A stretch of 64,000 bases of DNA from Sphaerodactylus townsendi. Lineage: Eukaryota. The notes below the pieces were generated by a model. The model had not been told where the DNA came from, searched no databases, and worked only from the letters and a program-made list of their open reading frames with translations. The DNA is taken from the NCBI RefSeq assembly GCF_021028975.2, contig NC_059429.1, forward strand, positions 80,476,001 through 80,540,000, in the 5' to 3' direction. Within the stretch, counting starts at the first letter, position 1. The number at the start of each line of letters is the position of its first letter. Shown one piece after another: positions 15,832-63,262 of this stretch. The position numbers were made by a program, and so were the translations under genes.

Positions 15832-29861
<14,030 letters not shown>

Positions 29862-31691: not shown

Positions 31692-32616
31692 TATGTGAGT
31701 TAATTAGGATGTCAGTTTCCTCCCATTTTGTTATCTTTTAGTAGAAGAGTCACCTCTCAAAAGTGCTGCAGCCTATGTTGTACAAACCCTTTGGGGATCG
31801 GGCGGTATAGAAATTGAATAAATAATAATAATAATAATAACTTTCCAGTGTGTCGATATCAATATTCAGATTAGCTTAAAGTAGACTTTAGAAGCTGTTT
31901 TTAATCCACTTCAGCACTTTCATAGTAAACTGCTGATGCAGATCTAAATCAAGATAATGGTTCTCATGTTTCTTAAATGCTTTTGCCAGGAAGATTACTT
32001 CAGTTTTTACTAAAGGGAAATGGAAGTTGAGTGAGGGAAAAGAAAGGTATTGATTTAGCAGCCCTGCAAATGAAAACAGACATTGGTCTTACCTGTGAAG
32101 GTGATTTCTCCATTGAGCGATTGGGAACATCTGGGTATTTGCTAATCCACCAATCAGGGAGGCAGGAATTTGCATAAATTTTTCCCAGGATTCCCTCTGT
32201 GCCTTGCTTCTCCTCCTCTCCTCAGTTTTGGATTCTCCCATCAGTAGTGACAGACGTGATGACAGTGTAGAGGTCATGTTCTCCATTTGAATAAATGGCA
32301 TAAAAAACTCCAGAAAATTCAGAACAGTTAACTGTAATAACTTGAACAAACACAATGTCAATAATATATCATGAGGAAAAATCCAATGAAGAGGAAAAAC
32401 AGCGGGTCAATCCAGAGGTGACCAACATTATAAAAAACACTGGGAAAAGAAACTAGTCTTGTAAAGAATTGATGAGAGGATGTCTGACCAATTTTTTGGG
32501 GGGCAGATGTTCCCAATCGCTCAATGGAGAAATCACCTTCACAGGTAAGACCAATGTCTGTTCTCCATTGAGCGAGGGAACATCTGGGTGACCTCCCCTA
32601 GCAGTGTCACAATCTT

Positions 32617-33630
32617 TTACAGGGTGGGGTCAAAATCCTCTCCAATAATATGTTGTAACACTCTGCGGCCATAGTCTGCATCTGCCGCACTGAAAATATT
32701 AAGCTTGTAATGTCTTACAAATGTTGAAAGAGAAGACCACGTTGCCGCTCTACAGATCTCTGTGACTGGGACATTATTATTAAAGGCTGCATTCGTGGAG
32801 GCATTACGTACGGAATGCGCCGTGATCCCTACAGGAATCGGCAACTTTTGGGTTTTGTATGCCTCTTCTATGCACTCTCTGAGACATTTACTGATAGCTT
32901 GAGAAGACAACTTTTGCCCCTTGTTGTGATTGGCAATGGAAACAAATAAAGACTCTGATCGTCTAAAAGTCTGAGTTCTAATGAGGAAGGCCTTCAAGGA
33001 CCTCCTAACATCTAGCTTATGCCAATAAATTTCTTTTGAAAACACTCGGGGGGCGGTACAAAGTCCGAAGGGGAGGGCCCTGAATTGGAAGTGATCCTCC
33101 CCTATCCCGAATCTTAGGAATCTGCGATGCCCCTCGAAGATCGGGATATGAAGGTATGCCTCTGAAAGGTCTACCGACGTGAGGAACTCCTGGGGGTGAA
33201 GGGAATCCGCTATGGATCTCAGTGTCTCCATTCTGAAGTGTTTTAATTTTACAAATTGGTTGACGTATTTTAAATCTAGAATGGGCCGCCATTCCCCGTT
33301 TTTCTTGGGGACTGTGAATAGAATGGAGTACACCCCTTTTTCCCTTTGTTCCCGTGGAACAGGTTCCACTGCTTCGATTAGTAGCAGGTGAGAGATGGCT
33401 TCTAATTTTCTTAGTCTTTTTTCCGGATTTAAGGAGAGAGGGGACAGCAGGAAACGACTGGGGGGAAGGGCTGCAAACTCTATTACATAGCCTGAGGAAA
33501 CAATTTCTAGGGACCAGGCATCTACCTTGGATGTCTTCCAAATCTGTTGGTACCTTAGAAGTCTGCCCCCCACTGCTACGCTGTTGGCGTCAGGCTTTGC
33601 TATTACGTGAGTCTTGGAAGGACCGGTCAT
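32617..33630 (-). pseudogene. DIRS RT(N-half)-YR(C-half) in-frame deletion fusion ORF
   Basis: VGGRL..W..GYVIEF..VPKKNGEWRPILDLK..FRMETL..DLSEAYLHIP..LPFGLCTAPRVFSK joined directly to EIYWHKLDVRRSL..TAHSVR..CRAATWSSLSTFVRHY. The RT YxDD motif, RNase H, methyltransferase and first catalytic Arg of YR are missing. Confidence 0.9.
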
Positions 33631-35083
33631 TTCCTTGTTGCTTTCTGGGCATGAAGCCCTTCTTGAATTGCTGGCGGCCTTGGTTCCAGTACGGGCGCCT
33701 GAAGTCTCTTTTGGCCTGGCTGAAACTCTGCTGAAATGTCTGTCCCTGGTAGGGACGAAAATTGTTGCCGGAGCCTGATTTCTTGTCGAACCTGCGAAAG
33801 GACTTAGGCAAAAGTTTAGGTTTTTCTTTGGGGTCTATTAGGAACTCCTTAAGTTCATCTCCGAAGAGCTTATGCCCTTGAAAAGCGCACTCAGATACCA
33901 AAGCCTTGGATTTCCAATCTGTTTGCCATGCTCTTAACCAAAGGAGCCTGCGTGCAGCAACTGAAGATGCCATGGCTCGTGCCGCAAAGGTCACTGAGTC
34001 TATTGTGGCGTCTGAAGCAAAACACACTGACTTTAGCATCCTATTTACCCCCTCTATGGATCTGGTCTCACTTTCTGGGAGTAATTCTAATACTTTTCTT
34101 CCCCATGCAATGGATGCTCTGCACACAATGGATGCTGTGGCTGACGCTCTGATTACCATGGCCATCGCTTCATGAGACCTTCGGCATAATTGGTCTGCGC
34201 GTCTATCTTGCAGATCCTTAATTTGTCCCCTACCATCTTTGGAAACCGGCCCTGTGGACTGGAGAGCCGCCACCGGGCCATCTATAATAGGTACTTGCAA
34301 AATGGCATTGGCATAGGATGGTAGTGCATAAAGCTTTCGTAGGAAATTTGGGCATCGCCTATTTGCGGCTGGCTTATCCCATTCATTAGTGACCTGGGTC
34401 TCAAAGTATTCAGGAAAGGGGAAAACCTTTTTTGAATGGGCGTTGGAAGGAAAATATTGGCCATCCCCTTTGTGTAGTGAGGTCGGCTTTCTTTTGGATG
34501 CATCCTCACCACTCTTGGCTTCACCTAAATGTAGGGCAGAAACCGCTTTGGATAATAGGTATTGGTAGTCCTCAATTTTGAAAAAACGAGAGGACTGTTC
34601 AGTGACCTGGATCTCCTCAAGATCCTCTGTATCTGATAAGACTTCCCCCTCCTCTCTGCTGTGTGAGTCTGAATCGGAGGAATCATCTGCTCCAATGGCT
34701 GGGCTCAGCCTGGGCTTCTTGAGAGCTGCCTTTGTCTGCCAAACAGGGTTCATTCTCTTATTTTCCCTGATGGTGTGGCGTGGAGGGGAAGCCCTGGAAC
34801 TATGCGGAGGACTCGAGGGTTCACGGCAAAGCTGCTCCCTGTACATGGCTAGCATTTCCTCCCTCATAGTGGCTTTCTCTTGTTGGAATGCCCCTTTAAC
34901 GTAACTAAAAATTTCGGATTTTAAATCCTTCAGGGAAAGCTTACCCTCTGCCTGCGACTCTGCCAGCGATTGTGACTGGTCCTCTGGTAATATTAAGGCA
35001 GCATCTGAGCCCTGGCCTGGGACACCAAGGCACAATGGGCTGTTTGGAGCTTCTCCTGCTCCGTCGCGCCTAACGGCGGCCAT
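33590..35083 (-). CDS. DIRS gag-like ORF (497 aa; probable true start at 35277)
   Basis: Long intact ORF with features typical of vertebrate DIRS1 gag (FPFPEYF..WDKP, ARAMASSVAARRLLWLRAW..FQGHKLFG). Confidence 0.85.
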   Translation of the reverse strand: MAAVRRDGAGEAPNSPLCLGVPGQGSDAALILPEDQSQSLAESQAEGKLSLKDLKSEIFSYVKGAFQQEKATMREEMLAMYREQLCREPSSPPHSSRASPPRHTIRENKRMNPVWQTKAALKKPRLSPAIGADDSSDSDSHSREEGEVLSDTEDLEEIQVTEQSSRFFKIEDYQYLLSKAVSALHLGEAKSGEDASKRKPTSLHKGDGQYFPSNAHSKKVFPFPEYFETQVTNEWDKPAANRRCPNFLRKLYALPSYANAILQVPIIDGPVAALQSTGPVSKDGRGQIKDLQDRRADQLCRRSHEAMAMVIRASATASIVCRASIAWGRKVLELLPESETRSIEGVNRMLKSVCFASDATIDSVTFAARAMASSVAARRLLWLRAWQTDWKSKALVSECAFQGHKLFGDELKEFLIDPKEKPKLLPKSFRRFDKKSGSGNNFRPYQGQTFQQSFSQAKRDFRRPYWNQGRQQFKKGFMPRKQQGNDRSFQDSRNSKA

Positions 35084-36889
35084 TTTACGCGCCTCTTCCT
35101 TTTTAGTAGCGTTCTTTTCGGCTCGCCAGTACGCGATTCTCCGTCGAGAAAGCGGAGGCGGCCCCTCTCAGGGCTGCTGTCGCCTTCCCCGGCTGTTTCC
35201 TCGGGTGGTCGGCGGCTGGAGACGGTTCCGTCGCTCTCCTCCTCTGAGGAGAGAACCGTGTCCCGTTTTCGCGGCATGGCGGCTCTTTTTCCCGCCGCTC
35301 GCTGCTTGCCTGCAAGAGAGGATTGCCGGGCAGAGCGAAAAGCCGCTTGCGAGAGCCCGGCGGTTGCCGTTTGCGCGCCTTTTGAAAAACGCGCCCCTCG
35401 CCTCTAAACGCCAGCAATGGCTGGCAAGCTAAATAACAGTTATCGAAGAATATCAGTGGCAGTGAAGCCACTGCGACTGCACTCCCTAAGGCAGGAAACA
35501 AAACTGAGGAGAGGAGGAGAAGCAAGGCACAGAGGGAATCCTGGGAAAAATTTATGCAAATTCCTGCCTCCCTGATTGGTGGATTAGCAAATACCCAGAT
35601 GTTCCCTCGCTCAATGGAGAACAAAGCTTTTCTTGTCCCAGTCATACAAAAACAACACACAAACTTGCATTACTGGGTTCCAGATATTTTAAGATGATGT
35701 AAGCAGGAATTGAGTAGGTCATGCTGCCACATAACTATGAGGGGAAATCCTCAGTCTTTTTCTTGTAATTGTTTTCCTTACCTGTTTATTTTGATTTGGT
35801 TTGTCACTATCATGTATAGGGTGTCACATGTGTTGGTTTCATTTCAAGAGCATTCTGACTTCTATCATTGGCCAGAGATCTGCATCTAATTGCATGCCTG
35901 GTGATCTCAAGTGATGACTGGTGATCTTTGAGGATGCATCAAATGATTTACCTAGCTTGTTCACTGATAAACTGAAGTGAGTGCACATCTGAATTACACA
36001 TAATAACTTTGTTTCTGCTTGTGGATCTACTGTCTTTGGATCCAAGAGCTGATCTATGAAGACCTAGAATTTTATTTATTTGCACTGGATCTTGAATTAT
36101 GGAGTGGACTTCCTTAAAGGTCACAAGACACATGGAGAGGGATGCAACTCTGGGCAGGGGTACTATTCCTGGGGCAAGTGAAACCTTTATCAGCTAAGGC
36201 CAGGTTGGGTAAAATGCCCTTGACAGAGAATGCTCACTGGACCATCTTGGATTTGAGGGACTCGCTGCATTCTCCTTATCTGTCATTGCACACTAATTTA
36301 GAAGGAAGGGAACTCAGAAAGAGGCCAATATACCCTACACAAAGGTACTATTTATTCATATTCTAATTTTAATGTGGGGATGGCAATACAATCCTCTCAT
36401 GTGCCAGCAGGTTCTTTGCCTACAGCTGCATGCAAAAATCTCACATGCCTATTTGTGGATCACTTAGCTTGTGCTCAGCAGAGCAGAAGCGGAGTTTTTA
36501 ACTGCTTTGCATTTTATGTTTCTAAAAGGTTCTAATTTTGAAAGGATTTGTGCTTGGGTCAATTTTTCAACTTGTTTTAAAATGTTTGTCTTTTTGCATT
36601 CTTCTGGTTTTACAGTTCTTTCTTTAGTTGTTTTAAAGATCTTTCTGTGTTGTATTTTTTGGAAGAGTGGTTTTGTGGAATTTTGAGTTGTTCCTGTTGG
36701 CTTTTAAATTTAAAAATATTTTAGCAGGTTCCAAGAAAAATTCTAATTATGTTTAATTACATTAACTACAAGTGAGAGTTTTGGCATTTTTAAAAAACAC
36801 AAATGTCAAGCTTAGGGTTCCGTTCTCAAAAATATGTAAGGTTTGGTTAAGGCGATTCAGGCGATTAAAAAAATTAACTGAAGCATTTG

Positions 36890-50100: not shown

Positions 50101-52394
50101 CAGTTGTCAAAATCTACTTCTCCAGCAGCCAGCTCTTCCTTTCTTAGAGTCTGAAAGGGGATAGTAGACAGTAATGTTTTCCAGAGTGTTAAGCACAGAA
50201 AGAAACAGAACTGAAGAGGAGCTCAGGGTTAACTCTGGACTAAGTCAACATAATATAAGCAAGTCTTTTTTTTTGTATTAGTTCACTGGATATTAATTCA
50301 TTACATTCAGAACTATTGACCTTTACTTTAGAACCAGATGCCAATTTCACAAGCACCTCCTCCCCACAAGCAAAACAAATCACTGTAAACCCCTGAAGAA
50401 AAAAAGCCCCCAAAGAGAGAAAGGTGAACAACTTAAGTCATAACATTCACCAATGAAAAATTAAAAATGCTTCAGACAGTCCTGGCACAGCTTACAAATG
50501 AGATGATGCTCACAATGACAACCATTTCACAAGAGTACACATCAAGGTCTGAAATATCCCTTCTCAATGGATCACAATTTTAATCTAATTAATTTTTCAG
50601 ACTAATGTAATACAAATAACGACATCATCTAATCTGCTTTAGTAAGATTTTAAAAAGTTCTGAGCTTCTTTAAATAAAATCTGATTGGGATGAGGGAAGC
50701 AAGGGTGCACCAAGTGTCATTGTTTAGGATTTCCTTCAAAAGAAGAGGCTGCACTATACAATGCTTTCTCTCTTTGCTGCCTATTCAAAATAAGGATCTT
50801 CCTATTTATAACAACAGAAACTTCATGGAACGGCATGCAGCTTATGGGACACTGCATGCAGATCAGCTCCAACAATTTTGTTAATTGTACTTTTATCCAT
50901 CTACAGTTAGCATAAGCCATAGCAGTTACAGAGCATTAAAAATGTTACTATTCTTCTGTTCCTATTTCAAGCTCCAGTACAAACACAGCATCAGACATGA
51001 GGTGATGGGGTGATTCATGCAGTGCTCACAGGAATACAACAGATAGATCACCACTACCTGGAGGGTCTGGACTTGCTGGCCTGAGGCAGATGCCACCTGA
51101 GCCTCAGTCTGCAACTGGACAGCAGTGACACCACCCTGCTGCTGGGAACAGGAACAGGAAGAGCTTGAAACTTTGCAGGAGGGCAGGAAAAACTCAAAAC
51201 AAAAAACATCCTTACTATCAGCAGAAGAACAGACCTTATGTGGCTTTGCTTGTTGTGATAACCACTAGTGCTTGACTTGAGCTATATTTACTAACAAGAG
51301 AACAACAAAGGCCCCATATTAAAATTTGGAAACTTAAAACTTTNNNNNNNNNNNNNNNNNNNNNNNNNNNNNNNNNNNNNNNNNNNNNNNNNNNNNNNNN
51401 NNNNNNNNNNNNNNNNNNNNNNNNNNNNNNNNNNNNNNNNNNNNNNNNNNNNNNNNNNNNNNNNNNNNNNNNNNNNNNNNNNNNNNNNNNNNNNNNNNNN
51501 NNNNNNNNNCTAAAGAACAAATCTCAATAACCTCTTGGAGGATGTTACCTATATCAGTATACCTTTAATAATGTACTGTTAGGACCCCCCTAAGAAACAA
51601 AAACATACCAATCTATGAAAACAGAGGTAGGCTAAGATAAGAAAGGGAAATAAAGTTACACTGACCAGCTTAAAACCACTCACTACATCATTAATATGTA
51701 TACTACTACACAGAGCCTCACTGAACTGACTATTTTGCTCTTATCTGAACAAGCAAAACTTTCCTTCCTGGTTCAACAAATCAGATCAAAGGGAGTCTGT
51801 ACTATTACTCAAGAAATACTACAAAAGTCTACACTAAGTGAAGTGTGACTGATATTATGTTTCGTATGCACCACAATGCCTGCTCCACAGACTGAACTGT
51901 ACAGAAAACCAAAGAACTGATGAAATAGTGTTAAGGCCACCTATCTACACAGATGATATGATCAATCCTTCCATTTTTTAGGCATTCTGAGATTTTTTTC
52001 AAACTTTCCCGTATTCTCATAAAAATAACATATCATCTTACACAGTACAGAAGAAAAACAAAACCACTTTGGAAGAACAGGTGGGAGAAAAGCAATATAG
52101 AAAGAAACTAATTTAAAAGTCAAAATGCTTTGATACTGTGTATTATGGCACATGCTCAGACTAAGACATATTGATTTACAGGAGATTTCTTACATCTTCA
52201 GGCAAAGTAAGCTCTAGATAAAATCACAACCAGTAAAGCAACATCTATGCTCATTGGTGTCTAAAACAGAAGCGAATAACCAAAGCCTTGAGCTCATCCT
52301 CATAAATAATTTCCCACACCTGTTGTTGAATCTGGCCAGCTTGTACAACTATCTGTTCAGTCGAACTATTGCTGTTTGTTGTGTACTGCTCCAT
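41115..52394 (-). CDS. NFYA: NFYA nuclear transcription factor Y subunit alpha, long isoform; join(52394..52320,51141..51055,49154..49008,46633..46502,45533..45428,43712..43546,43117..42944,42533..42432,41168..41115), 347 aa
   Basis: MEQYTTNSNSSTEQIVVQAGQIQQQ..., a Q-rich activation domain, the HAP2/CBF-B domain EEPLYVNAKQYHRILKRRQARAKLE...KYLHESRHRHAMARKRGEGGRF, and the C-terminus EEAMTQMIRVS*. Exons sum to 1044 nt. Confidence 0.97.
41887..42133 (+). mobile_element. Squam3-like SINE
   Basis: TGGTACAGTGG box A, GGTTTGATTCCC box B, CTT tail. Confidence 0.8.
42432..42533 (-). CDS. NFYA: NFYA exon 9 (CCAAT-binding helix A2)
   Basis: KYLHESRHRHAMARKRGEGGRFFSPKEKDSPHMQ. Confidence 0.97.
42944..43117 (-). 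CDS. NFYA: NFYA exon 8 (subunit-interaction helix A1)
   Basis: MVPGTGSVPAIQRIPLPGAEMLEEEPLYVNAKQYHRILKRRQARAKLEAEGKIPKERR. Confidence 0.97.
43546..43712 (-). CDS. NFYA: NFYA exon 7 (alternative acceptor at 43694)
   Basis: VTVPVTGMITIPAASLAGAQIVQAGANTNTTSSGQGTVTVTLPVAGNVVNSGGMVM. Confidence 0.95.
44080..44900 (-). mobile_element. L2-like LINE fragment
   Basis: Degenerate RT C-terminal region (QERAFSVMA) and tail GGGAGGGCAGGATAAAAGT. Confidence 0.55.
45428..45533 (-). CDS. NFYA: NFYA exon 6
   Basis: TQPQIAVQGQQVAQTAEGQTIVYQPVNADGTILQQ. Confidence 0.95.
46502..46633 (-). CDS. NFYA: NFYA exon 5
   Basis: IQLVQPSQIQIQSGQAVQVQGQQGQTQQIIIQQPQTAVTAGQTQ. Confidence 0.95.
48157..48297. mobile_element. 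141-bp MITE (copy 1)
   Basis: Long TIRs; a near-identical inverted copy lies at 63263-63403. Confidence 0.8.
49008..49154 (-). CDS. NFYA: NFYA exon 4
   Basis: VQGQPLMVQVSGGQLITSTGQPIMVQAVPGSQGQTIMQVPVSGSQGLQQ. Confidence 0.95.
51055..51141 (-). CDS. NFYA: NFYA cassette exon 3 (long isoform)
   Basis: QQGGVTAVQLQTEAQVASASGQQVQTLQV; CAGCAGCAG acceptor and tandem donor GTAGTG. Confidence 0.93.
51344..51509. other. assembly gap (166 N) in NFYA intron 2
   Basis: Run of N. Confidence 1.
52320..52394 (-). CDS. NFYA: NFYA first coding exon (exon begins at 52434)
   Basis: MEQYTTNSNSSTEQIVVQAGQIQQQ|GTGTG. Confidence 0.95.
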
Positions 52395-60530: not shown

Positions 60531-63028
60531 GTGTGTAGAGGAGTATTTTTATATATTGTAAAGCAGTTTTATGGATGTTGGTTGTGGTTTTAATTTTTGT
60601 AGAGGAAAATAGCAGTATTCCAAACATTTGATATTACATAGTTGTGAAATAGGGTGATTTGATTATGGGATTTAGTTTAATGTAATAAACAGAGAACTCT
60701 TAAGGACTTATATTCATAAAATTAGCTGAGCCAACCTTGTGCTTGTTCTCTTTCATTTTGGTACACCACACATATTGCTTAATATCCTTGAGCTCTGATT
60801 TGGTTTCTTATTTTTAAGAAAGTTGTGCTCTGTTCTCCTTTCAAAGGCCGTTTAGCAGTATTGTTCTGACAGAACACACAATCTTGTTTTCGAGGTGAGC
60901 TTCATCTTTTACTGGTGCAGGTTGGGGACTTTGATTCCCCCCTACAGTGCTGTTCTTGCAGTGGTCACAAAGCCACTGACAGTTTTTGCAACATTTCTGA
61001 AAATAAACACATTTGATATTTACATGTCACCAGCACTGACTGTAATTTCCATACCATGTCTTTACACACCTGCTTAACTTCTCATCAGGAATGCCTGCTT
61101 TTTTTTAACCAACACCTACTTATTCACTCATTTTCCTGTACATTGTGGGTTTAAACAAAGCACACAGTGAGTGACCTCTGAAGTAGTAACCATAGTAACC
61201 TCCTCTTCCATGGTGTTAAAAATACTACCTGTATTTATAAAGCAATATAAATAGCAAAATTGCTAGCTAGTTTACTTCAAGTGTGCCTTGTGGCCCAATC
61301 CTAAAGGGGCAGGGAGGGGGTGACCAGGCTGATGGAGGTAGCAGGGGGCCATGGTGGCGCATTTGTCCTTTCCCCTGGTGTAAGGGGCACATTGGTAGAA
61401 AGGGTAAAGATGCCATGCCCAGGTGCACCTCAGCTCTGTGGCGGCGAAACCCAGAAGAGGGTGCTGCTGCAATAGCATGGGGCATGTGCCAAGGCATTCC
61501 CAGGGGTGGACCCAACTATAGTCGGCTTCCACTTAGGCTTTCATGCTGCAAGTGCTGCAGCCAGTGCCCCCAGACAGGTGACATAAGTCCATTTTGCCCC
61601 ATGGGGGGCTTTCAGGCAACTGGGAGGTTTTTTTTTCCTGCCTCCCCATGCCACCTGAAAACCCTCCAGAGGTGGCAGCACAGCACAGTAGTAGCACTGT
61701 CCCAAACTCCCTCAGACTTTGGATTCTCTGCTAGGATTCTCTTCTTGCAGAGAGTAACTTCTACTGAATGCAATATGTTGACTTATTTCTGAGTAAATTT
61801 CTGTTGGAGTTTTCTGTTAAATGAAGTTGTCAGTGACTTTGACAATCCTGTGCGTTACATGGAATCAAGGACGTAGGTAAGAGGGGTGGTTCTCGGGTTC
61901 AACCCCCCCGTTACATGAACGAAGCTCCACCCCCCGTTTGTGATTTTTTTGGGGTATTTTTTAGTTTTCCGGTTTTTGGCCTGGACGCAGTATTTAGGCT
62001 AGCGGCATCAAAATTTCAGGAATTTGTTGGGAAACTCTTCTGATGATACCACCCAGGTTTGGTGAGATTTGGTTTAGGGGATTCAAAGTTATGAACTCCC
62101 AAAGGGGACGCCCCATCCCCCATTGTTTCCAATGGGAGCTAATAGAAGATGGGGCTACACTTTTGAGGGTCCATAACTTTGGACCCCCTGAACCAAACTT
62201 CACCAAACCTGGGTGGTATCATCAGGAGAGTCTCCTAAAGACACCCTGAAAGTTTGGTGCTGCTAGCTTAACAATTGCACCCCTGACAGCAGGCACCCCC
62301 CCCCAATTTCCCCAGACTCTTCTTTTAAATCCACCCCCTTCAGCATGGATTTAAAGAGAGAATCTGAGGTCCCCAGTTTTAACATTGAAAGTGATGCTGT
62401 TTCAGGGTGGGGGATAATCCACCCCAAAACAGCATCACTTTCAATGTTGTTTTAATTGGGGATCCCAGATTCTCCCTTTAAGGTGGAGTTAAAAGGAGAA
62501 AATGGGCTCCCTAAACACCATTTAAAGTGATGCGATTTGGGGGTGGATTCCAGCATCACAGTGGCTGCCCATGGGAGGGGCGGGGGGGGCACAAAACTCA
62601 GATTTTGCACCAGGCTCCATTTTCCCTAGCTACGCCTGCCTGGCCTTGGAGAGCTACTTCTAAAAGCACTGAGGCCGGGGGCGGGGCTTGGGGAGGCATG
62701 GCCATGCCCCCGGGGGGGGGAGAGTGGTCCCGAACCCCCCTCCCCAAATCTATACCTACATCACTGCATGGAATGCATGGGATTTCTGCCTTAAGCTTTA
62801 GGACTCTTTATGATTCTGCCTTCACATGTTTTCTAAACCAAATGCTTTTTTCTCTCATTCTTTTTGAATGTTCTGGGAACCAGATCAGGTATGTGAAGGG
62901 AGACCTTTTTACCTCTCCTGGAACTGATTCCTTGGCTCACTGCATCAGTGAAGATTGCCACATGAGTGCTGGCATAGCTGCCATTTTTAAGAAAAAGTTT
63001 GATGGTGTGCAGGAACTCTTGAATCAAA
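60498..63028 (+). CDS. OARD1: OARD1/TARG1 macrodomain ADP-ribose glycohydrolase, 5' part; join(60498..60530,62884..63028), continues beyond the window
   Basis: [11 protein letters not shown]|[48 protein letters not shown] matches the recalled OARD1 sequence; head-to-head with NFYA as in mammals. Confidence 0.93.
61866..62766. mobile_element. hAT-type non-autonomous element (901 bp) in an OARD1 intron
   Basis: Imperfect TIR CAAGGACGTAGGTA / TACCTACATCACTG and perfect 8-bp TSD catggaat. Confidence 0.8.
62884..63028 (+). CDS. OARD1: OARD1 second coding exon
   Basis: IRYVKGDLF...VQELLNQ A|GTAAGT. Confidence 0.95.
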
Positions 63029-63262
63029 GTAAGTGATGAAGCAGTGTAAACTAGATCTGTTTATAAAATGTAAAAATGTTGGTTCTTTTGGAATCCTCTA
63101 GTGCTTTTGGGTTAAATACAGCCCCATAGAAGCTCACAAAAATGAAATATCAGAAGTACACATTCCTGTGCCATCTTTATGGTAGTCTTAAAATACTGAC
63201 CTTTCTGATATTGAACTCTTGGGAATTGTAATAGTTACTGATTATTTTAGAACCAAAACCTA

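What the first reader, a model, noticed from the sequence alone, without database searches (positions are those of the whole stretch)
32075..35623. Young, internally deleted DIRS1 element with all cis-elements and gag retained and an in-frame RT-YR fusion
Seen: near-identical ITRs, a perfect ICR, a stop-free gag, and one 337-aa ORF in which RT stops at LPFGLCTAPRVFSK and continues directly into the YR C-half (EIYWHKLDVRR..HSVR..RHY). The junction is at about 33034, within TCAAAAGAA. Known: autonomous DIRS1 elements also need RT YxDD, RNase H, a methyltransferase-like domain and the first catalytic Arg of YR, all absent here. Inference: this may be a gag-only non-autonomous DIRS family mobilised in trans, analogous to gag-only LTR elements, rather than a one-off deletion. 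Keeping the frame would also avoid a premature stop in the pol frame.
Basis: partly seen in the sequence, partly recalled or inferred. Interest (0 to 1): 0.75.

Follow-up and report, generated by a model that had tools for sequence, protein, structure and literature searches.

The report
Broken gecko DIRS1 jumping-gene copy
This is a young DIRS1-type jumping gene, likely from a gecko, that lacks the middle of its enzyme genes and has a frameshift near the start of its gag gene; it likely sits at one place in the genome beside a few full-length relatives, so it is likely an ordinary broken copy rather than a new parasitic family.

Summary
The anatomy is real: a minus-strand DIRS1-like element at exactly 32075-35623, ITRs 123/125 identical, a perfect 86-nt ICR, and a 337-aa frame joining the RT N-half to the YR C-half. 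The break lies at 33041|33040. The 60-nt junction also occurs in contigs of 3 of 5 sequencing runs (two studies), so it is not an assembly artefact. All five runs also carry full-length-type continuations; about 1.95 kb is missing. Two parts of the interpretation fail. (1) Gag is not intact. Homologous gags start at a Kozak ATG (35277) that is out of frame here because of a lesion at 35104-35157, where family contigs have 67 letters against 54. (2) There is no sign of an amplified family. Junction depth is about 1.0-1.6 times single-copy controls in the two usable runs; the 2-3-fold excess in a third comes from a GATC-cut library. The fusion frame is a one-in-three outcome, and the same deletion stops the overlapping frame seven codons later. 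Most likely this is a single dead-on-arrival copy from a reverse-transcriptase template jump at a short imperfect repeat. Two or three trans-mobilised copies remain possible (about 20%).

The parts
35499..35623 (-). Left terminus / left ITR; begins with the (T)GTT core at 35623-35620
   Evidence: flank contigs start at 35594, 30 nt inside the end
34993..35277 (-). Natural gag start (GCCGCCATG, 35277); this frame closes after 94 aa because of the lesion below
   Evidence: homologous gags align over residues 1-38/40 in this frame
35104..35157 (-). Frameshifting lesion in gag: 54 letters here, 67 in family contigs
   Evidence: table 5 (X1, X3, X4); frame change; inversion test inconclusive
33590..35167 (-). 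Stop-free gag body (525 aa; first Met 35083), LAP2alpha domain
   Evidence: PF11560 E 8.6e-15; 63-79% identity to 10 Sphaerodactylus townsendi proteins, 39% to an 11th
33041..33630 (-). RT N-half (Met 33630 to ...APRVF), ending before YxDD
33017..33589 (-). Overlapping 190-aa open frame following the gag stop in the gag frame; likely the start of the long YR ORF; stops seven codons after the junction
   Evidence: identity as YR ORF inferred from DIRS1 layout (PMC3266345); no homologue found
33033..33041 (-). Deletion junction 33041|33040 beside an imperfect TCAAA(AG) microhomology; about 1.95 kb missing
32617..33040 (-). YR C-half (H-S-V-R and R-H-Y kept, first catalytic Arg lost), in frame with the RT N-half
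32504..32589 (-). ICR, 59 + 31 nt overlapping on the 4-nt (T)GTT circle-junction core
32075..32230 (-). Right ITR plus right extension; ends in the (T)GTT core 32078-32075; splice-donor-like AG|GTAAGA at 32094-32087
   Evidence: X3 flank contig ends at 32104

Best explanation
This is a young, internally deleted and gag-frameshifted copy of a DIRS1-like retrotransposon, likely present at a single locus and likely dead on arrival: reverse transcriptase likely jumped about 1.95 kb along a full-length RNA at a short imperfect repeat, and the shortened DNA, with ITRs and ICR intact, would then have been completed and inserted by proteins made from that same full-length RNA. Shown: the anatomy, the breakpoint, the junction in other samples, full-length-type relatives about 99.6-99.8% alike, the gag frameshift in the window's sequence. 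Inferred: single locus (from rough contig depth), template jump rather than later repair, cis supply of proteins. The RT-YR fusion is likely a by-product without function: it has no RT catalytic YxDD and lacks the first YR arginine.
For: Junction depth is 17.9 vs 18.3 for a control contig in X2 (0.98), and that control is 0.85-1.12 times the flanks in X3, the same sample. In X1 it is 49.4 vs 43.3 (1.14) or vs flank 30.8 (1.6). Full-length-type branches leave both breakpoints in all 5 runs laid. Their first 30 letters, translated by hand, read VLINLVVLL after RT and LPTFCPAPKH before the YR half, matching homologues. A TCAAA(AG) motif sits at both breakpoints with one mismatch beside it. The four substitutions that separate the window from the contigs of X1, X3 and X4 alike are all synonymous (P about 0.008 under neutrality). 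8 of the 12 substitutions in 33041-35103 outside the junction base are synonymous (P about 0.009). These look inherited from a selected parent, leaving almost no post-insertion decay beside two structural lesions. Other joints with different breakpoints appear in related contigs (table 5). An earlier, unchecked note describes an RT mis-jump in another DIRS copy of this genome; a lead, not support.
Against: The tool states that contig depth is no copy number. X1's 1.6-fold excess over the flank is significant under a Poisson model (P 0.0015), though not against the control contig (P 0.21). The junction is 29-50% of family depth in three runs. Contigs cannot link the junction to this locus in other animals. 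The breakpoint is blunt unless one substitution is allowed, so microhomology is suggestive only. The 54-letter gag lesion is absent from the laid contigs of X1 and X3 (depth accounting exact); it could be private to this copy and removed by contig cleaning, or be an error in the window's assembly.
Confidence: 0.55

Rival explanations
1. A full-length copy inserted here and later lost about 1.95 kb by double-strand-break repair (microhomology-mediated end joining); the deleted allele then spread in the population.
For: The short imperfect repeat at both breakpoints fits repair as well as a template jump. X3 shows both flanks joined to the ends but no junction, which could mean a full-length allele here.
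Against: X2 is the same sample as X3 and has the junction at single-copy depth. X3's main path is a variant with an extra base in the G-run at 33048-33053, so contig cleaning can have dropped the junction. The copy shows almost no neutral substitutions, leaving little time for two large lesions.
Confidence: 0.2
2. The deleted element was transcribed and re-inserted once or twice with proteins from full-length copies, giving two or three loci with the same junction (an incipient non-autonomous lineage).
For: All cis elements are perfect. Junction/flank is 1.6 in X1 and 2.3-2.4 in X5. DIRS-1 RT acts in trans and the ICR is the essential cis element (PMC7192593, section 21 and passages read). TOC1 is a non-autonomous DIRS-order element (PMC9940879, passage).
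Against: X5 is a GATC-cut proximity-type library: 7 of 16 listed piece ends fall on GATC sites versus 0 of 16 in each of X1, X3 and X4, and a GATC duplication appears at 33093. Its depth is therefore unusable against flanks, and subtraction gives 11.3 rather than 21.6. X2 gives 0.98. In PMC7192593 the truncated DIRS-1 did not complete retrotransposition, although that assay was confounded by failed splicing of the marker.
Confidence: 0.2
3. A selected gag-only (TR-GAG-like) or fusion-bearing (IAP 1-delta-1-like) DIRS family in which gag or the RT-YR fusion aids mobility in cis.
For: Stop-free gag body and an in-frame fusion. Precedents exist in LTR elements (PMC8704663, PMC6466679; passages).
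Against: Gag is frameshifted after about residue 40. Depth shows no amplification. No RT-N/YR-C fusion with this joint was found among the 120 listed homologues (of 156 hits): 77 match the RT half only, 41 the YR half only, 2 both with different layouts. The frame is a one-in-three outcome, and the overlapping frame is truncated.
Confidence: 0.03
4. The deletion is a mis-join in the window's assembly.
For: The 60-nt junction records have 30 letters on each side, one short of the tool's bridging rule of 31, and the junction is absent from X3 and X4 contigs.
Against: A 60-nt record identical to 33011-33070 stands at depth 49.4, 17.9 and 21.6 in X1, X2 and X5 (three samples, two studies, two organism labels). 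That length is what a 31-mer graph gives between two branch points. One of these samples may be the window's source; two remain.
Confidence: 0.02

Closest known systems
Vertebrate DIRS1-like elements (AcDIRS1/2, GaDIRS1/2, TnDIRS1a, XtDIRS2; PMC3266345 section 10 and passages read; Xenopus DIRS-like families, PMC9210276 passages read)
   Same: ITR plus right extension, two-part ICR (31+59 vs 36-46 + 56-61 nt), GTT/AAC circle junction as in GaDIRS1/2, LAP2alpha gag, overlapping RT and YR frames, inferred full length about 5.5 kb (5.3-6.2 kb for the vertebrate elements in Table 3).
   Different: This copy lacks YxDD, RNase H, MT and the YR N-half, and its gag is frameshifted. Degenerate families are common: 36 of 75 X. 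tropicalis families show some degeneration (PMC9210276).
trDIRS-1, the engineered truncated Dictyostelium DIRS-1 (PMC7192593, section 21 read)
   Same: Internal deletion with ITRs and ICR kept; reverse-transcribed in trans.
   Different: Engineered, lacks ORF1; full mobilisation was not achieved or not readable, so trans-integration of an ITR/ICR element is still unshown there.
TOC1 (Chlamydomonas) and SIRE (Trypanosoma) non-autonomous YR retroelements (PMC9940879, PMC6681497; passages)
   Same: Defective members of the DIRS order.
   Different: Multi-copy families of split-direct-repeat type (for TOC elements per PMC3266345); this copy is ITR/ICR type and appears single.
Mouse IAP 1-delta-1 and plant TR-GAG (PMC6466679, PMC8704663; passages)
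   Same: Internal deletion of about 1.9 kb with an in-frame fusion (IAP); gag-only layout (TR-GAG).
   Different: Those keep a translatable gag or gag-pol ORF and produce new insertions; here gag is broken, the fusion is RT-YR, and amplification is not seen.

Membership tests
DIRS1-like YR retrotransposon | Inverted terminal repeats | tested here: met
   123/125
DIRS1-like YR retrotransposon | ICR complementary to both ends, overlapping on a short circle junction | tested here: met
   31/31 and 59/59 inside the element; (T)GTT core
DIRS1-like YR retrotransposon | Junction motif repeated at both ends (NTT rule), no longer target duplication | tested here: met
   TGTT at 35623-35620 and 32078-32075; rule from PMC3266345 section 10
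DIRS1-like YR retrotransposon | Gag-like ORF1 (LAP2alpha domain in vertebrates) | tested here: met
   PF11560 E 8.6e-15; present but frameshifted
DIRS1-like YR retrotransposon | RT-RNase H-MT pol and a YR ORF | tested here: inconclusive
   Only the RT N-half and YR C-half are in this copy. Relatives continue into RT and YR sequence at both breaks, but only 30 letters of each were shown, so RH and MT were not seen
Autonomous DIRS1 element | YxDD, RNase H, complete YR tetrad, intact gag | tested here: not met
Gag-only non-autonomous family (TR-GAG-like) | Intact gag ORF from the natural start | tested here: not met
   Frame change at 35104-35157; whether the lesion is in the animal or only in this assembly is not settled
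Gag-only non-autonomous family (TR-GAG-like) | Several loci with the same junction and different flanks | tested here: inconclusive
   Depth ratios 0.98, 1.14, 1.6 in usable runs; no genome held
Gag-only non-autonomous family (TR-GAG-like) | All cis elements kept | tested here: met
Gag-only non-autonomous family (TR-GAG-like) | Purifying selection on gag among deleted copies; transcription | not testable with these tools
   No second deleted copy in hand; no RNA holder listed
IAP 1-delta-1-like fusion helper | Translated in-frame fusion from the gag start that promotes mobility in cis | tested here: not met
   The fusion is RT-YR, downstream of a broken gag, without catalytic YxDD or first Arg

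The most novel reading that the evidence does not exclude
The deleted element has been copied at least once after the deletion: two or three loci share the 33041|33040 junction. That would make it a natural ITR/ICR-type DIRS1 derivative mobilised entirely in trans, without a usable gag, and would show that the vertebrate DIRS tyrosine recombinase and gag serve foreign RNA.
Probability: 0.2. Interest if true: 0.5.

Novelty: new member of a known kind. Interest (0 to 1): 0.17.

Why it matters
As a single broken copy it matters little: a polymorphism marker, and one more likely example of a replication slip in a young lizard DIRS1 family. If the junction proved to sit at several loci, it would answer a point that the one experimental study read here left open (PMC7192593 section 21): whether DIRS proteins other than RT act in trans. 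The phrase searches for non-autonomous DIRS returned only TOC1; Repbase/Dfam entries and subscription papers could not be searched, so novelty in print is not established.

Tried and rejected
Genome-wide junction count: no genome is held; replaced by contigs of public runs. Five of the 10 listed runs were laid (X1-X5); X6-X8 (share 0.16) and X9-X10 (0.00) were not. RNA: no RNA holder listed; no evidence either way. A second copy in the window: none. Splicing as the cause of the deletion: rejected; from the loose ends the removed part starts CT and ends CA on the element strand, and no register within the repeat gives GT..AG. X5's apparent 2-3 copies: set aside as a GATC-library effect. X5's 4-nt insertion at 33093: first read as a frameshift in the fusion, then rejected as a GATC ligation signature. 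Inversion as the nature of the 54-nt gag lesion: inconclusive (best P 0.02 for 1 of 6 homologue segments, uncorrected). Homologues of the 190-aa overlapping frame: none among 334 candidates (weak evidence). Absence of the junction in X3 and X4: not taken as evidence, since contigs drop minor paths. Earlier scan notes near this locus or like its sequence: none. PMC8498967 passages gave nothing on deleted DIRS families. A six-frame Pfam scan of long stretches failed on stop codons and was redone on 120 of the 136 listed plus-strand stop-free frames. No structure or complex prediction was run: neither half of the fusion is catalytically complete. Supplementary files of the papers were not opened; those of PMC3266345 and PMC9210276 may list deleted copies.
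Full report
Anatomy. The element lies on the minus strand from 35623 to 32075. Self-comparison gives ITRs of 123/125 identity (35499-35621 vs 32106-32230) and an ICR at 32504-32589 that matches the left end 31/31 and the right end 59/59 inside the element. Both ends and the ICR share the core TGTT, in line with the GTT/AAC junction listed for stickleback DIRS1 elements (PMC3266345, section 10 read). No other copy lies in the window. Alignments show RT ending about 25 residues before YLDD, with RNase H and the MT region absent. The YR half lacks the SARR motif with the first arginine but keeps HSVR and RHY. The closest named gag proteins are all from Sphaerodactylus townsendi (11 of 11 hits; 63-79% for ten), so the host is probably a gecko (inference).

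Is the deletion real? No genome is held, so I laid contigs of public runs. Ten runs were listed, five at share 0.5 or more; those five were laid. A 60-nt record identical to 33011-33070 stands in X1, X2 and X5 (depth 49.4, 17.9, 21.6; three samples, two studies, two organism labels) and is missing from X3 and X4. It has 30 letters on each side, one short of the tool's bridging rule, but that is the length a 31-mer graph gives between two branch points. All five runs also have contigs that leave the window's sequence at the break. Their first 30 letters, translated by hand, continue RT (VLINLVVLL) and precede the YR half (LPTFCPAPKH) as homologues do. In X4 these contigs run 552 and 1432 letters beyond the breaks, so about 1.95 kb is missing if they abut, giving a parent of about 5.5 kb, within the range of vertebrate DIRS1 elements. 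The break is 33041|33040. A TCAAA motif (TCAAAAG in a variant seen in X3 and X5) follows in both parental positions with one mismatch before it: an imperfect microhomology. No register gives GT..AG ends, so splicing is not the cause.

Insertion. Flank contigs run 30 letters into the ends without breaking at the boundary (X3 both sides, X1 right side), and none of the 13 listed joints skips the element. This confirms the coordinates and suggests the insertion is homozygous in those samples (inference).

Gag is not intact. Homologous gags begin MP.(K/R)KDTVLSSEEESD and align over residues 1-38/40 to a frame that starts at GCCGCCATG (35277) and closes after 94 aa; the rest aligns to the stop-free frame (clear for P0121, P0122, P0125, weak for P0123, out of 11). 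Contigs of X1, X3 and X4 have 67 letters where the window has 54 (35104-35157), which accounts for the offset. A shortened gag from Met 35083 is conceivable by leaky scanning but sits behind a strong upstream start (inference). The window's 54-letter version is not among the laid contigs of X1 or X3 (bin depths reproduced exactly without it). It is therefore either private and cleaned away, or an assembly error; an inversion test was inconclusive.

How many copies carry the junction? The tool warns that contig depth is no copy number, so these are rough ratios. X2: 0.98 times a control contig of another DIRS family, which in X3 (same sample) is 0.85-1.12 times the flanks. X1: 1.14 times that control and 1.6 times the flank (Poisson P 0.21 and 0.0015). 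X5: 2.3-3.0, but 7 of its 16 listed piece ends lie on GATC sites against 0 of 16 in each of X1, X3 and X4, and the junction sits in a short GATC fragment. This marks a restriction-cut proximity library (inference), so I set its ratio to flanks aside. Locally the junction is 29-32% (X1), 40-46% (X2) and 47-50% (X5) of family depth, and the family is about 2-5 times the flank in X1 and X3. One homozygous locus beside two to five full-length alleles fits all three; a further heterozygous copy in X1 is not excluded.

Age and selection. The window differs from the long family contigs by 4/1962 (X1), 7/1955 (X3) and 9/2069 (X4) letters. Leaving out the junction base, 8 of 12 distinct sites in 33041-35103 are synonymous in gag or RT, against about 0.3 expected (P 0.009). 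The four differences common to X1, X3 and X4, including one in the YR half, are all synonymous (P 0.008). These include RT and YR sites, which would be unconstrained after the deletion, so they were probably inherited from a working parent. This speaks for an active family and a copy with almost no decay since insertion, not for a long-lived deleted lineage. Two structural lesions with hardly any neutral substitution point to errors made during replication (inference).

The in-frame fusion. RT and YR are separate, often overlapping ORFs in DIRS1 elements (PMC3266345, PMC9210276; passages), so one deletion length in three joins them. The same deletion ends the 190-aa overlapping frame seven codons after the joint, so no premature stop is avoided overall. 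Among 120 listed homologues none has this joint (77 RT half only, 41 YR half only, 2 both with other layouts).

Mechanism. Most likely a full-length RNA supplied its own proteins, RT skipped between the two TCAAA motifs, and the ICR, which is essential in DIRS-1 (PMC7192593, passages and section 21), let the shortened cDNA be completed and recombined into a TGTT site (0.55). No trans step is needed for this. Later repair-mediated deletion (0.2) and one or two rounds of trans-mobilisation (0.2) are the live rivals; a selected gag-only family (0.03) and mis-assembly (0.02) are unlikely.

Comparison and novelty. It works like, and belongs to, the DIRS1-like superfamily as a defective member. It fails the gag-only test on gag integrity and is inconclusive on copy number. 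Non-autonomous DIRS-order elements are known (TOC1, SIRE), as are gag-only and fusion-bearing LTR elements. Eight literature searches (listings and abstract starts seen) showed no natural non-autonomous ITR/ICR family by title or abstract start, but Repbase and subscription papers were out of reach. Verdict: ordinary broken copy, interest 0.17; the multi-locus reading (0.2) would deserve about 0.5.

Noticed in passing
window 32000-32149 and 32450-32599: Contig depth on the terminus and ICR is about 80-350 times the flank (X1 2516 and 4676 vs 30.8; X3 6400 and 19071 vs 55-72), while the interior is 2-8 times. Repeats are counted at two places, but many related elements share these ends. They may be other DIRS families or end-only derivatives; a better place to look for non-autonomous DIRS than this copy.
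   Followed up: no
window 32258-32501 (table 5): A joint skipping about 242 nt between ICR and right ITR at depth 115.5 (X1), 280.8 (X3), 14 (X4): a multi-copy relative with a short or different spacer. Other joints: 32692-32868, 32614-32982, 32610-33008, 33097-33289.
   Followed up: no
window 33048-33053: A full-length-type path in X3 and X5 has one extra base in the G-run, i.e. a frameshift in RT; some full-length relatives are also defective.
   Followed up: partly
   Followed up: partly
window 19290-19814, 27119-27394, about 28090-28190 (+ strand): Exons of an ETS factor with SAM/Pointed and Ets domains, ETV6/ETV7-like by recall. The DIRS lies about 3.9 kb beyond the last exon found, antisense; last intron or 3' flank not resolved.
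   Followed up: partly
window 62515-63036 (+): The end of this frame reads like an OARD1-type macro-domain exon (recalled; no Pfam hit at 1e-3).
   Followed up: no
window about 31780-31845: LINE-like 3' end with an (AAT)n tail about 230 nt from the element's right end (family not tested).
   Followed up: no
run X5: Contig ends cluster on GATC sites and show GATCGATC: a proximity-ligation signature that distorts depth and can mimic 4-nt insertions.
   Followed up: yes
window 51344-51509: Assembly gap of 166 N.
   Followed up: no
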